From: Escherichia phage TH12
Reading direction: 5' to 3' (one strand)
Sequence record: MT446390.1
DNA length: 64,000 bases
In this document: in pieces, positions 36,509 through 39,985 of the stretch
Layout: each line of letters opens with the position of its first letter
Position numbering within the stretch: the stretch's first letter is position 1
Notes under the pieces: model-generated
Told to the model about the DNA's origin: nothing
The model's database searches: none
Seen by the model: the letters and a program-made list of their open reading frames with translations, nothing else
Made by a program: the position numbers and the translations under genes

Positions 36509-37501
36509 ATGTTACCTGTCGTCGGAAAACTTATTTCTCCAAAAGAACTGGCTGAGATTATTCCTTTGTCGGAAGCTTACGCATCACAAGTGGCTTCTCA
36601 TCGCGAACAAGTTAATTCGATTATGAACGGTGAAGACCCACGCAAACTTATTGTTGTAGGTCCTTGTTCAATTCATGACCCTATTGCTGCTGTTGAATAC
36701 GGCAAACGTCTGGCTGAACTTCAAACTCGTCTTCCTAATGTTCTGTTAGTGATGCGCGTTTATTTTGAAAAGCCTCGAACTACCGTAGGTTGGAAAGGTC
36801 TTGTAAATGATCCATATCTTGACGGAAGTTTTGATATGAACCACGGTCTTATAGTTGCACGAACATTGTGTCGTAAACTTCTACGTATGGGACTTCCATT
36901 AGCAACTGAAGTATTAGACCCATTCACGATTAAGTATCTTTCTGGTATTTTCTCATGGGTTGCTATTGGCGCACGTACGACTGAAAGTCAGACACATCGT
37001 GAAATTGCTTCAGGTCTACCGATGTGCGTAGGCTTCAAGAACGCAACCAATGGTTCTATTAAAGTAGCTACAGACGCGATGTATAGTGCCGCCTGGCCTC
37101 ATCGGTATATGGGTATGGACGTCGATGGTACTGTAGGCATTGTTGAAGCTGAAGGTAATCAGAATACGCATATCGTATTGCGTGGCGGGACCAACGGCCC
37201 GAACTATCATTCTTCTGATATTCAAGAAGCTTCTAACAAAGCAAGGGCAGTAGGTCTGAATCATTATGTAATGGTTGACTGTAGCCATGCAAACGCTGAT
37301 GGGCATTATAGCAATCAAATTGATATTGGTAAAAATTTAGCAGCTAATGATTTGGTCAAAGGAATTATGATAGAATCGTTCCTACATGAAGGAAATCAAA
37401 AAATTTCTGATAATATGTCCTATGGCGTTTCCGTTACCGATGCGTGCATCAGTTGGGAACAAACTAAAGAGCTGTTAACTTATATTAATAAGGTTCAATA
37501 A
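36509..37501 (+). CDS. 3-deoxy-D-arabino-heptulosonate 7-phosphate (DAHP) synthase, class I (AroG/AroF/AroH-like)
   Basis: 330 aa; LIVVGPCSIHDP, MRVYFEKPRTTVGWKGL, IGARTTESQTHRE, GFKNATNGS, ILRGG and MIESFLHEGNQ segments align with recalled E. coli AroG. Confidence 0.85.
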   Translation: MLPVVGKLISPKELAEIIPLSEAYASQVASHREQVNSIMNGEDPRKLIVVGPCSIHDPIAAVEYGKRLAELQTRLPNVLLVMRVYFEKPRTTVGWKGLVNDPYLDGSFDMNHGLIVARTLCRKLLRMGLPLATEVLDPFTIKYLSGIFSWVAIGARTTESQTHREIASGLPMCVGFKNATNGSIKVATDAMYSAAWPHRYMGMDVDGTVGIVEAEGNQNTHIVLRGGTNGPNYHSSDIQEASNKARAVGLNHYVMVDCSHANADGHYSNQIDIGKNLAANDLVKGIMIESFLHEGNQKISDNMSYGVSVTDACISWEQTKELLTYINKVQ

Positions 37502-38380: not shown

Positions 38381-38437
38381 TATGCTTTACGAATAGTATG
38401 GTATTATTAATCTATCGTCAAACAATAAGGAAATAAG

Positions 38438-38770: not shown

Positions 38771-38894
38771 TATAAATAACTATATGAAGAGAACACTCTT
38801 CTAAGCGGTAGCCTACAACTGAGAGACTTGTCGAAAGAAGGTGAAATTCAGACGAACGTGGCTACTAAATATTATCTCGAATTGAGAATTTAAA

Positions 38895-39143
38895 ATGATT
38901 AAACAATTACAACACGCTCTTGAACTGCAACGCAACGCATGGAATAACGGTCACGAAAACTACGGCGCGTCAATTGATGTTGAAGCCGAAGCACTGGAAA
39001 TCCTGCGTTATTTCAAACACCTGAATCCTGCTCAGGCTACTCTGGCTTCTGAACTGGAAGCTAAAGATGAATTGAAATATGCTAAGCCTCTGGCTTCTGC
39101 AGCACGCAAAGCAGTTCGTCATTTTGTTATTACTTTGAAATAA
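38895..39143 (+). CDS. rIII: lysis inhibition accessory protein rIII
   Basis: 82 aa; MIKQLQHALELQRNAWNNGHENYGASIDVEAEALEILRYF matches recalled T4 rIII. Confidence 0.85.
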   Translation: MIKQLQHALELQRNAWNNGHENYGASIDVEAEALEILRYFKHLNPAQATLASELEAKDELKYAKPLASAARKAVRHFVITLK

Positions 39144-39306
39144 TTGCTATCATGCGTCAGCAAAAGGTTAGCTGTGTAAGTCATGGTAGGTATGATGACG
39201 GGTTTATGGTTATCCTGTCGTTAAATACCCAAAACCTATGTTCCCCTTGAGGGCTTGCGCAGGCAATGTCAATAAGTCCTGCATTTTCATTTAAAGAGAA
39301 TTTATA

Positions 39307-39486
39307 ATGGCAAAACAAGCTAAAGCAAAGAAAGCAGTTGAAAAGAAAGTTGATGGTACCTCTAAACGCGCTGGATACAAGCGTGGGTCGAACTCTCGTA
39401 TTAATCAAACAGTTGAGAAGATCATGCGCAGAGCACGTGCAGTTCTTCGAGATGATGCTTCTCGTTTTGGAAAGGTTGTTGCATAA
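39307..39486 (+). CDS. small lysine/arginine-rich protein (59 aa); not in ORF track
   Basis: ATG-initiated ORF MAKQAKAKKAVEKKVDGTSKRAGYKRGSNSRINQTVEKIMRRARAVLRDDASRFGKVVA, followed 5 nt later by a strong terminator hairpin. Confidence 0.45.
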   Translation: MAKQAKAKKAVEKKVDGTSKRAGYKRGSNSRINQTVEKIMRRARAVLRDDASRFGKVVA

Positions 39487-39490
39487 TTTT

Positions 39491-39514
39491 AGGGAGACTT
39501 CGGTCTCCCTTTTG
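39491..39514 (+). terminator. rho-independent terminator (AGGGAGAC-TTCG-GTCTCCCT + T tract)
   Basis: 8-bp stem, TTCG loop, TTTGTG. Confidence 0.65.
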
Positions 39515-39616
39515 TGCGTTTAGGGCAGAAAAAGTTTAAAAAAGATGTTTACTCTCCTGTAGGATGTGTTACTATAGACTTGTACCACCTAATCAATAAA
39601 ACAACCGGAGAATAAA

Positions 39617-39985
39617 ATGAAAATCAATCTGAACTCATACATCAAATGTAAAGACCACGATGGTTATAAAGCTATCGAAATTAAAGAATTCCAGTGGATG
39701 TTATACAAAGAGCAATTTGAGTTCGTAGGTTGTATGACCCCTGAAGGTCCTTCTGATGATTTCTCTTGGAAAATTGTGTTAGCAAACTTTTTCACAGGTG
39801 ACACGTACGAATTAAAAACTATTATTACCGGTAAAATTCGTTCAGAAACATATGTTGACGAAGAAACTGGTTACTCTGAAGATGTTACATGGTATCAAAA
39901 TGGACGCATTACAGCAGATAACCTGATCGAAAAAATGAAAGCCAAAGGTGTTTTAAATTTAGACAATTGGATTAAAGTTGCATAA
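39617..39985 (+). CDS. hypothetical protein (122 aa)
   Basis: ORF with RBS GGAGAA and upstream promoter cassette. Confidence 0.6.
   Translation: MKINLNSYIKCKDHDGYKAIEIKEFQWMLYKEQFEFVGCMTPEGPSDDFSWKIVLANFFTGDTYELKTIITGKIRSETYVDEETGYSEDVTWYQNGRITADNLIEKMKAKGVLNLDNWIKVA

What the first reader, a model, noticed from the sequence alone, without database searches (positions are those of the whole stretch)
39144..39514. Unannotated small basic ORF with its own terminator, preceded by an atypical GC-richer leader
A 59-codon ATG-initiated ORF (39307..39486) encodes a Lys/Arg-rich peptide (MAKQAKAKKAVEKKVDG...RRARAVLRDDASRFGKVVA) and ends 5 nt before a strong hairpin terminator. It is below the ORF-track length cut-off, and the track instead shows an antisense 75-aa ORF that I consider spurious. 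The 160 bp upstream (39144..39306) lacks the usual promoter cassette and is comparatively GC-rich (CCCCTTGAGGGCTTGCGCAGGC), which could mean a structured leader or a small RNA. The basic composition suggests a nucleic-acid-binding protein.
Basis: seen in the sequence. Interest (0 to 1): 0.4.

Follow-up and report, generated by a model that had tools for sequence, protein, structure and literature searches.

The report
T4 gene 30.9 with pseudoknotted leader
The small basic ORF is the already annotated, function-unknown phage T4 gene 30.9, but the "odd" stretch in front of it is a conserved folded RNA (a pseudoknot plus hairpins) that is in no RNA family database and turned up in none of the papers I could search.

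Summary
The window is a T4-like Mosigvirus, 100% identical to Escherichia phage 55 over the 726 bases compared. ORF 39307..39486 (59 aa, pI 11.4) is real. It is the ortholog of T4 gene 30.9 (PHROG 1427), which public records annotate as hypothetical. It lies between rIII and 30.8 in at least 9 genera, is under purifying selection (median dN/dS 0.30), and is followed by a terminator whose stem changes by compensatory substitutions. The antisense 75-aa ORF is spurious. So "unannotated" is not correct, and "GC-rich" is marginal (40.5% against 37.8%).

The new result concerns the leader. The last ~115 nt are as conserved as the flanking genes or more. They contain an H-type pseudoknot (39193..39240) with strong covariation, found in all 37 distinct rIII-30.9 spacers tested. 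A short hairpin (39243..39254) and a positionally conserved hairpin (39259..39282) follow. Rfam has no match, and neither do E. coli genomes or plasmids. The spacer has no late or middle promoter, so 30.9 is most likely the second cistron of an rIII-30.9 operon.

The likeliest role is post-transcriptional control of 30.9, possibly by gp30.9 itself. This is inferred, not shown. T4 data show an early transcript, no detected protein, and a dispensable gene.

Side observation: related phages carry a ToxI-like antitoxin repeat in this spacer. This window does not.

The parts
38895..39143 (+). rIII (lysis-inhibition accessory protein), the upstream cistron of the same transcription unit
   Evidence: PHROG 1457, E 2.6e-43; annotated in the identical record. 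Promoter-like sites lie upstream only: a perfect MotA box plus -10 at 38383, TATAAATA at 38771, and a sigma-70-like site at 38847-38875. This matches T4, where rIII has early, middle and late promoters (PMC9409239).
39144..39192 (+). variable part of the rIII-30.9 spacer
   Evidence: Not alignable with T4. Relatives carry insertions of 80-235 nt here. Only weak sigma-70-like matches: 39124-39153 and 39167-39196.
39193..39240 (+). H-type pseudoknot module. Stem H1 pairs 39193-39202 with 39214-39223. Loop bases 39208-39211 (GGUU) pair with 39233-39236 (AACC) after an A-rich linker.
   Evidence: Covariation on 37 distinct sequences: 79.8% of cells paired against at most 50% when partners are slid, and covariation score 0.253 against 0.122 shuffled (0 of 500). 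Three pairs have no unpaired cell: UA19/AU17/GC1, CG24/GC9/UA4, and pseudoknot pair GC28/AU5/GU4. Loop-tail complementarity is specific to each sequence (0 of 20000 partner permutations). G.U pairs fit the + strand only. This is the only significant hit in 114 kb of this phage genome. No Rfam match.
39243..39254 (+). hairpin H2, CCC(C)-UUGA-GGG(C), followed by the conserved CUUGCG
   Evidence: The sequence is conserved in most genera. Stem variants keep pairing: GCC/GGC (L054), CCUC/GAGG (L027), GCU/AGC (L031), UCC/GGA (L047). Single-sequence folds of most relatives recover it. It is a short stem, so support is moderate. PM2-type phages lack it or have it moved.
39259..39282 (+). hairpin H3, GCAGG(C) / (G)CCUGC with a conserved loop
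   Evidence: A terminal-closing stem occupies the same position in all 18 sequence types, using at least 8 unrelated stem sequences. Fold z-scores run from -0.8 to -6.0; this window scores -1.9. The STML-198 stem CUGG/CCAG is compensatory to CAGG/CCUG here.
39284..39306 (+). pyrimidine-rich tract, weak Shine-Dalgarno (AAAGAGAA, 39293-39300) and spacer to the ATG; possible SD-sequestering hairpin AUUUUC/GAGAAU
   Evidence: The hairpin is predicted in the MFE and centroid folds, but the pairing is no better than in composition-matched shuffles across 28 sequences. It is therefore not supported as a conserved helix. An RBS is annotated here in the identical record.
39307..39486 (+). gene 30.9 ortholog: 59 aa, 6.6 kDa, pI 11.35
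   Evidence: PHROG 1427, E 2.4e-31. T4 NP_049823 'gp30.9 conserved hypothetical protein'. Found in 1006 phage records. Start M[AS]K is fixed and the upstream in-frame extension is not conserved. Median dN/dS is 0.30 over 682 pairs of 38 distinct CDS. Invariant core SKRAGYKRxSNxRI(N/D) followed by a basic helix.
39491..39519 (+). intrinsic terminator of the rIII-30.9 unit
   Evidence: -19.2 kcal/mol, z = -4.4. A GC-rich hairpin followed by a T-run sits right after the stop in 35 of the 36 distinct downstream sequences read; the exception is the distant Pseudomonas phage PspYZU05, L013. Stems differ by compensatory changes: GGGAGAC/GUCUCCC, GGACUCC/GGAGUCC, GGGAACC/GGUUCCC, GGGGCUCC/GGAGCCCC. 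Annotated as a terminator in two relatives.
39181..39408 (-). antisense 75-aa ORF: not a gene
   Evidence: No PHROG match. The frame is broken in T4 and other relatives. Single-base indels between T4 and this window fall inside it.
39547..39575 (+). early-type promoter of the next unit (30.8): GTTTAC, 17 nt, TACTAT
   Evidence: Read directly from the sequence. The assignment is inferred from my recollection of the T4 early-promoter consensus. 30.8 matches Pfam PF06019.

Best explanation
The locus is the distal half of a two-gene transcription unit, rIII-30.9. The unit starts at the promoters upstream of rIII and ends at the terminator at 39491-39519. ORF 39307..39486 is the ortholog of T4 gene 30.9. 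It encodes a 6.6-kDa, very basic protein with a floppy Lys/Ala-rich N-terminus, an invariant SKRAGYKRxSNxRIN core and one long basic helix. The 163-nt spacer is not a promoter region. It is an intercistronic RNA whose last ~115 nt fold into a conserved H-type pseudoknot followed by two hairpins and a weak ribosome-binding site. I propose that this folded leader sets how much gp30.9 is made from the shared mRNA. It would act as a binding platform (operator) for an RNA-binding protein, most economically gp30.9 itself, in the way T4 gp32 and ribosomal protein S15 use pseudoknots in their own leaders. Shown: gene identity, coding selection, terminator, absence of phage-type promoters in the spacer, the pseudoknot and hairpin H3. 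Inferred: co-transcription with rIII, any effect on translation, and the identity of the binding partner.
For: Identity and coding. Synteny 31-rIII-spacer-30.9-terminator-30.8 holds in Tequatro-, Mosig-, Dhaka-, Gapriver-, Karam-, Gelderland-, Moon-, Jiaoda- and Mosugukvirus. Promoters of all three T4 classes lie upstream of rIII and none lies in the spacer; T4 literature reports the same for rIII. In the Proteus phage (L010) stem H1 starts 6 nt after the rIII stop, and in L047, L039 and L029 the module begins within a few bases of it, which leaves no room for a promoter. The leader is as conserved as the flanking genes or more: against T4 it is 0.93 identical (0.87 rIII, 0.91 30.9), and against UPEC07 0.89 (0.81 and 0.65). 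Pseudoknot covariation. H3 keeps its position with unrelated sequences. H2 has a conserved sequence and compensated variants. The pseudoknot module is a single copy in 114 kb of the genome, which fits a cis element. The T4 30.9 transcript is classed early but the protein was not detected by proteomics (PMC9697503 Table S2). That is compatible with low translation, and equally with a protein that gives poor tryptic peptides.
Against: No experiment or computation here links the RNA to translation of 30.9. The predicted SD-sequestering hairpin is no better than chance. The distance from the pseudoknot to the 30.9 start varies from about 65 nt here to about 275 nt in Jiaodavirus, where other modules are inserted between them. 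That looks more like an independent module than an RBS-linked operator. Distant members of the protein family (L055, L057, L058, L013) have ordinary promoters and no pseudoknot. The RNA therefore goes with the rIII-30.9 junction, not with the protein. RNA binding by gp30.9 is only a guess from composition. The structure model has low confidence (pLDDT 66) and matches nothing.
Confidence: 0.5

Rival explanations
1. The pseudoknot module is an independent, possibly trans-acting RNA, for example a decoy for a host nuclease or defence protein, and merely resides in the rIII-30.9 spacer. Gene 30.9 would be an unrelated neighbour.
For: The module keeps its sequence and structure while its distance to both rIII and 30.9 varies widely. 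In relatives the same spacer holds a single ToxI-like unit, 93.5% identical over 30 nt to the tandem repeats that lie upstream of a ToxN/AbiQ toxin gene on a small E. coli plasmid; 65 plasmid records carry such repeats. The spacer is therefore a landing place for anti-defence RNA. Loop and linker nucleotides are conserved beyond what pairing needs. Knock-down of T4 30.9 has no fitness effect in a laboratory host, as expected for accessory functions in this region (PMC11879866 supplement).
Against: The module has no similarity to ToxI (z = -0.1) and no match in 72,556 plasmids or 5,426 E. coli genomes. It is not repeated. The AAAU in its linker is not conserved. No dedicated promoter or terminator was found.
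Confidence: 0.2
2. The folded spacer is an mRNA stability or processing element. It would protect the 3' end of the rIII message, or the 5' end of a processed 30.9 message, from host or phage ribonucleases, without regulating translation directly.
For: In several genera the pseudoknot begins within a few bases of the rIII stop, like a 3'-UTR structure. Compact stable hairpins occur in every genus. From established knowledge, T4 mRNAs are extensively processed by RNase E and RegB.
Against: Plain stability elements rarely keep conserved loop and linker sequences or a pseudoknot. A strong terminator hairpin already protects the 3' end of the unit.
Confidence: 0.2
3. The pseudoknot is a small-molecule riboswitch aptamer. 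Its topology resembles preQ1-I or SAM-II class H-type pseudoknots with an A-rich third loop.
For: It is an H-type pseudoknot with a conserved A-rich linker and conserved unpaired bases. A hairpin followed by a U-rich run (H3, 39259-39292) could serve as an expression platform.
Against: No Rfam riboswitch family matches even at E <= 10. Stem 1 has 10 bp and the linker is about 10-11 nt (39224-39232 in this window), unlike the small preQ1-I fold as I recall it. The downstream gene gives no metabolic rationale.
Confidence: 0.05
4. The conservation of the leader is not RNA-based. It would reflect a DNA-level signal or recent recombination, or the ORF itself would be a chance frame.
For: One record annotates an 'ori type 2 repeat' 11-20 nt upstream of the ATG. 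T-even genomes are mosaic.
Against: Compensatory double changes, G.U pairs that work only on the + strand, and loop-tail covariation all point to RNA. The ORF is kept intact with dN/dS of 0.3 across genera.
Confidence: 0.03

Closest known systems
Bacteriophage T4 gene 30.9 (NP_049823; UniProt P17310; PHROG 1427)
   Same: Same gene. The coding DNA is about 91% identical and the protein differs mainly by a one-residue indel and the last three residues. It has the same position between rIII and 30.8, the same terminator and the same leader.
   Different: Nothing essential. The old 97-aa '11.1 kDa' model of the T4 gene is an upstream over-extension. In this window it is excluded by a TAA stop five codons (15 nt) upstream of the ATG.
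T4 gene 32 translational operator (5' pseudoknot that nucleates gp32 binding; from established knowledge)
   Same: An H-type pseudoknot tens of nucleotides upstream of the start codon, in a T-even phage mRNA that encodes a nucleic-acid-binding-type protein.
   Different: There is no sequence relation. Here two hairpins lie between the pseudoknot and the RBS instead of an unstructured A/U-rich tract, and protein binding is untested.
Ribosomal-protein autoregulatory leaders, e.g. the S15 leader (Rfam RF00114)
   Same: A small, very basic protein gene preceded by a pseudoknotted leader.
   Different: The only hit is a chance-level match in one relative (20.5 bits against a gathering score of 39.5, E 0.91). 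gp30.9 matches no ribosomal-protein family.
ToxI / pseudo-ToxI type III antitoxin RNA mimics in phages (Blower et al. 2012, PMC3475682)
   Same: Non-coding pseudoknot RNA carried in a phage intergenic region. True ToxI-like units sit in the homologous spacer of related phages.
   Different: This window has no ToxI-like sequence. Its pseudoknot module is longer, single-copy, and matches no plasmid antitoxin array.

Membership tests
T4 gp30.9 family (PHROG 1427) | Significant sequence similarity to family members | tested here: met
   PHROG 1427 at E 2.4e-31. tblastn identity to T4 is 97.5% over residues 17-56. The profile search finds only this family.
T4 gp30.9 family (PHROG 1427) | Position between rIII and 30.8, same strand | tested here: met
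T4 gp30.9 family (PHROG 1427) | Conserved core SKRAGYKRxSNxRI(N/D) followed by a basic helix | tested here: met
   Alignments.
Intrinsic (Rho-independent) terminator | GC-rich hairpin directly followed by a U-run | tested here: met
   Stem 39492-39498 / 39503-39509 (extendable by A39491-U39510), UUCG loop, then UUUUGUGCGUUU; -19.2 kcal/mol, z = -4.4. The simple scan missed it.
Intrinsic (Rho-independent) terminator | Structure kept through compensatory changes in relatives | tested here: met
   At least four different stem sequences, all perfectly paired.
Intrinsic (Rho-independent) terminator | Transcripts end there in vivo | not testable with these tools
   Needs 3'-end mapping.
Autoregulatory pseudoknot operator (T4 gene 32 type) | H-type pseudoknot in the leader of the regulated gene | tested here: met
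Autoregulatory pseudoknot operator (T4 gene 32 type) | Unstructured tract between the pseudoknot and the RBS for cooperative protein binding | tested here: not met
   Hairpins H2 and H3 occupy the interval.
Autoregulatory pseudoknot operator (T4 gene 32 type) | The encoded protein binds the leader and represses its own translation | not testable with these tools
   Needs EMSA, toeprinting or reporter assays.
Rfam cis-regulatory or riboswitch families (S15 leader, preQ1-I, fluoride and others) | Covariance-model score at or above the gathering threshold | tested here: not met
   No relevant hit at E <= 10 in the window. Only sub-threshold chance hits in 17 relatives.
Type III antitoxin mimic (ToxI-like) | Sequence similarity to a ToxI repeat | tested here: not met
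   Window alignment score z = -0.1. Pattern searches are at chance level. No plasmid match. Relatives L005, L009, L014 and L031 do meet this feature.
Type III antitoxin mimic (ToxI-like) | Tandem repetition of the unit | tested here: not met
   No tandem repeat in 38800-39700.
Independent small-RNA gene | Own promoter and own terminator flanking the structured part | tested here: inconclusive
   Only weak sigma-70-like matches at 39124-39153 and 39167-39196. The second overlaps stem H1. H3 followed by AUUUUCAUUU is at best a weak terminator.

The most novel reading that the evidence does not exclude
The pseudoknot module (39193..39240), present in every rIII-30.9 spacer examined including T4 itself, is a previously undescribed functional RNA of T-even phages. 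It would be either the operator of a new RNA-binding regulator (gp30.9) or a stand-alone decoy or sensor RNA. In the decoy case it would sit in a spacer that serves as a hotspot for anti-defence RNAs, as the ToxI-like units in relatives suggest.
Probability: 0.3. Interest if true: 0.75.

Novelty: new member of a known kind. Interest (0 to 1): 0.45.

Why it matters
The gene itself adds nothing new. It is one of the many small T4 genes of unknown function and is dispensable in the laboratory. What matters is the leader. It is a covarying pseudoknot conserved across at least nine genera of the best-studied phage group, it matches no RNA family database, and I found it in no paper I could search. 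It gives gene 30.9 a concrete, testable handle: does the protein bind its own leader? It is also directly testable in T4. The neighbouring ToxI-like units in relatives suggest that the rIII-30.9 spacer is a site where phages keep RNA-based counter-defence modules.

Tried and rejected
1. The spacer folded alone has z = -0.59 and is uninformative.
2. RNAalifold on 11 close relatives recovered only H1. It proposed a different, unsupported fold for the rest, because those sequences vary too little.
3. SD-sequestering hairpin: my first test used wrongly placed windows. The corrected test shows the pairing is no better than in shuffled sequence, so I dropped the claim.
4. A 10-codon mini-ORF, ATGATG...TAA at 39192-39224, coincides with H1. 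I rejected it because single-base indels shift the frame in T4 and IME08 and the substitutions follow base pairing.
5. TATGAT at 39191-39196 as a -10 element: it overlaps the covarying stem and is not kept in T4 (GAATGAT).
6. The terminator scan missed the real terminator.
7. Protein function: there is no significant Pfam, NCBIfam or PDB sequence match. Foldseek found nothing with a low-confidence model. The exhaustive profile search found only 17 clusters, all in the same small family apart from one repetitive artefact, P0068.
8. Similarity of the leader to E. coli genomes or plasmids: none.
9. Second copies of the pseudoknot module: none in the window plus 50 kb more of the genome. The remaining ~56 kb was not searched.
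10. tRNA genes and tandem repeats: none.
11. Literature: Miller et al. 2003 is not held. Driukas & Nivinskas 2003 on rIII and 30.9 expression is cited in PMC9409239 but could not be read.

Full report
**What the window is.** The 726 bases around the finding are 100% identical to Escherichia phage 55 (OQ599310), a T4-like Mosigvirus. The local gene order on the + strand is DAHP-synthase-like gene, dCMP deaminase, 31.1-like gene, gene 31, rIII, the ORF in question, 30.8, 30.7.

**The observation.** The ORF at 39307..39486 exists as described. It encodes 59 aa of 6.6 kDa with pI 11.35. Its TAA stop at 39484-86 is followed after 5 nt by a perfect hairpin with a UUCG loop and a U-run (-19.2 kcal/mol, z = -4.4). 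The consensus terminator scan missed this hairpin. The spacer 39144..39306 has no T4 late promoter (TATAAATA) and no MotA-box middle promoter, only weak sigma-70-like matches. Two parts of the description do not hold.
- The ORF is annotated in the identical public record (Phage55_177). It is the ortholog of T4 gene 30.9, NP_049823.
- The spacer is only marginally GC-richer: 40.5% against 37.8%, the 73rd percentile of 163-nt windows.

**Is the ORF a gene?** Yes, on several independent grounds.
- It matches PHROG 1427 at E 2.4e-31.
- tblastn finds it in 1006 phage records from Escherichia, Klebsiella, Shigella, Enterobacter, Yersinia, Salmonella, Serratia, Citrobacter, Proteus and Pectobacterium phages.
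- In 12 annotated relatives from nine genera it always lies after rIII and before 30.8.
- Across 38 distinct coding sequences the frame is intact and the start is always M-[A/S]-K. The in-frame sequence upstream of the start is unrelated between genera and is closed by a stop five codons upstream in this window.
- Median dN/dS is 0.30 over 682 pairs.
- The antisense 75-aa ORF has no family match and is broken in relatives.
- The old 97-aa '11.1 kDa' T4 model (P0005, UniProt P17310) is an over-extension of this gene.

**The protein.** The alignment shows a Lys/Ala-rich N-terminus of variable length. An invariant core SKRAGYKRxSNxRI(N/D) and a basic amphipathic segment follow. AlphaFold2 gives a disordered N-terminal half and one helix over residues 30-54, with low confidence (pLDDT 66). 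No significant match was found in Pfam, NCBIfam, PDB sequences or PDB folds. An exhaustive profile search of 1.8 billion representative proteins finds 17 clusters. All belong to the same small family apart from one repetitive artefact. Distant members on metagenomic contigs have ordinary promoters. In T4 the 30.9 transcript is classed as early and the protein was not detected (PMC9697503 Table S2). Translational knock-down has no fitness effect on a laboratory host (PMC11879866 supplement). Nucleic-acid binding remains a guess from composition.

**Transcription context.** Upstream of gene 31 there is a perfect MotA box with a -10 element (38383). Directly after gene 31 there is a TATAAATA (38771). 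A sigma-70-like promoter lies at 38847-38875, in front of rIII. [quoted passage not shown] The terminator after 30.9 is present in 35 of the 36 distinct downstream sequences read, with stems that differ by compensatory changes; only the distant Pseudomonas phage PspYZU05 lacks a comparable hairpin. The simplest reading is a bicistronic rIII-30.9 unit. This is inferred, not shown.

**The leader.** Folded alone, the spacer is unremarkable (z = -0.59). Comparison with relatives changes the picture.
- The last ~115 nt before the ATG are 93% identical to T4, against 87% for rIII and 91% for 30.9. They are 89% identical to a Gaprivervirus, whose 30.9 coding sequence is only 65% identical.
- Single-base indels rule out a coding function for this stretch.
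- Upstream of that point the spacers are mosaic, ranging from 146 to 398 nt.

**The pseudoknot.** In 47 distinct upstream sequences I read a stem, 39193-39202 with 39214-39223. Its three base-most Watson-Crick pairs appear as GAC/GUC, GUU/AAC, GUG/CAC, GUC/GAC and GGC/GCC. The loop of this stem pairs with a stretch that follows an A-rich linker:
- GGUU:AACC in this window
- GUGAG:CUCAC in Karam- and Moonvirus
- CAAGGUU:AACCUUG in a Proteus phage
- UAGUAGUU:AACUACUA in locus L030
- GAUGG:CCAUC in locus L031.

**Covariation statistics.**
- On a MAFFT alignment of 23 sequences, 79.5% of cells are paired against at most 50% when partners are slid. The covariation score is 0.293 against 0.135 for shuffles (0 of 500).
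- A covariance model of the stem finds the module in all 37 distinct spacers searched (E <= 1.5e-7). This includes Jiaodavirus-type spacers, where it lies about 28 nt after the rIII stop and about 275 nt before 30.9.
- On that model-based alignment the figures are 79.8% paired and 0.253 against 0.122. Three pairs never break while changing on both sides: UA19/AU17/GC1, CG24/GC9/UA4 and pseudoknot pair GC28/AU5/GU4.
- Dealing loops and tails out to other partners among 14 representatives never reaches the observed complementarity (0 of 20000).
- These sequences are related, so the counts are not probabilities. At least five independent helix versions exist.
- G.U pairs fit the + strand only.

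**The rest of the leader.**
- H2 (39243-39254) is a short, sequence-conserved hairpin with four compensated variants.
- H3 (39259-39282) is a hairpin kept at the same place by at least eight unrelated stem sequences, with fold z-scores from -0.8 to -6.0.
- Single-sequence folds recover H2 and H3 in most genera.
- The predicted anti-SD/SD hairpin is no better than composition-matched shuffles. I do not claim it.

**What the RNA is not.**
- No Rfam family matches in the window (E <= 10) or in 17 relatives (E <= 1).
- It has no tRNA gene and no tandem repeat.
- It has no similarity to 5,426 E. coli genomes or 72,556 plasmids.
- The module is single-copy in 114 kb of this phage genome.

**How it probably works.** The structure is well supported and its function is not. 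The leader sits inside an operon, directly upstream of a weak RBS, and it carries conserved unpaired bases. For these reasons I favour a cis-acting post-transcriptional control element for 30.9. It would probably be a protein-binding operator, with gp30.9 the most economical candidate, by analogy with the T4 gene 32 and S15 leaders. The variable distance between the pseudoknot and the start codon weighs against this. So does the absence of the pseudoknot from distant homologues of the protein. Both keep the rivals alive: an independent or decoy RNA, a stability or processing element, or a riboswitch.

**Side finding.** In relatives with longer spacers there is a unit closely matching the 36-nt ToxI antitoxin repeat of Pectobacterium ToxIN. 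I verified the repeat sequence in PMC8610362.
- The unit lies immediately after the rIII stop in ATK47 (a Mosigvirus), UPEC07 and locus L031.
- It lies right after the pseudoknot in the Klebsiella phage LilPanda.
- The LilPanda unit is 93.5% identical over 30 nt to tandem repeats on 65 plasmid records from E. coli, Salmonella, Klebsiella and others, 62 of them mobilizable. In the one plasmid examined the array sits directly upstream of a ToxN/AbiQ toxin gene.
- ToxI-like sequence occurs in 80 phage records of several unrelated groups, including phiTE, where it is annotated pseudo-ToxI.
- This window lacks the unit.

**Verdict.** The ORF is an ordinary, already annotated T-even gene of unknown function. 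The leader is a real, conserved, pseudoknotted RNA that appears to be undescribed. Its role is open and can be tested directly in T4.

Noticed in passing
L005 about 378-411; L014 about 288-320; L031 (after the rIII stop); L009 378-407; L020, L021, L022, L032: Related T4-like phages (Mosigvirus ATK47, Gaprivervirus UPEC07, Jiaodavirus Klebsiella phages) carry a single ToxI-like unit in the rIII-30.9 spacer. The LilPanda (L009) unit is 93.5% identical over 30 nt to tandem repeats on small E. coli, Salmonella and Klebsiella plasmids; in the one plasmid examined the array lies upstream of a ToxN/AbiQ toxin gene. 80 phage records of several families hold ToxI-like sequence. This window lacks it. 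T4 has only a diverged remnant (z = 1.3).
   Followed up: partly
window 36509-37501 (+): A 330-aa gene annotated as phospho-2-dehydro-3-deoxyheptonate aldolase (DAHP synthase) sits just upstream of dCMP deaminase. This is an unusual auxiliary metabolic gene for a T4-like phage.
   Followed up: no
L009 about 410-550; also L014, L025, L029, L039: Longer spacers contain further apparently structured modules. One is a hairpin with a GAAA tetraloop whose stem covaries (UCGA/UCGA, CUGA/UCAG, CCGA/UCGG, UAGA/UCUA). Another is a long-range CUUAUC/GAUAAG pairing. Karam-, Moon- and Jiaodavirus have a large insertion in hairpin H3. No Rfam match.
   Followed up: no
window 39192-39224 (+): A 10-codon mini-ORF (ATG ATG ... 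TAA) coincides with pseudoknot stem H1. The frame is not conserved: single-base indels shift it in T4 and IME08. It was rejected as coding.
   Followed up: yes
window 39307-39486; public records: Annotation noise around this gene. The old Swiss-Prot model of T4 30.9 is a 97-aa '11.1 kDa' over-extension. Several GenBank records label the ortholog '1,4-alpha-glucan branching enzyme'. Some call extra ORFs inside the non-coding spacer.
   Followed up: partly
window about 39287-39296 (equivalent to L005 641-650): RefSeq record NC_055708 (phage ATK47) annotates an 'ori type 2 repeat' 11-20 nt upstream of the 30.9 start codon. The basis for this annotation is unknown.
   Followed up: no
L040, L042, L049 (about 586-652, 558-624, 540-607): In these phages an H2-like hairpin (CCCUUCGAGGAC) lies before the pseudoknot instead of after it. 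The modules of the spacer can therefore be reshuffled.
   Followed up: no
L013 / L053 (Pseudomonas phage PspYZU05) 656-934: A distant homologue of gp30.9 is 92 aa long, with an extra Pro/Lys/Ala-rich C-terminal tail. It directly follows gene 31, with no rIII and no pseudoknot.
   Followed up: no
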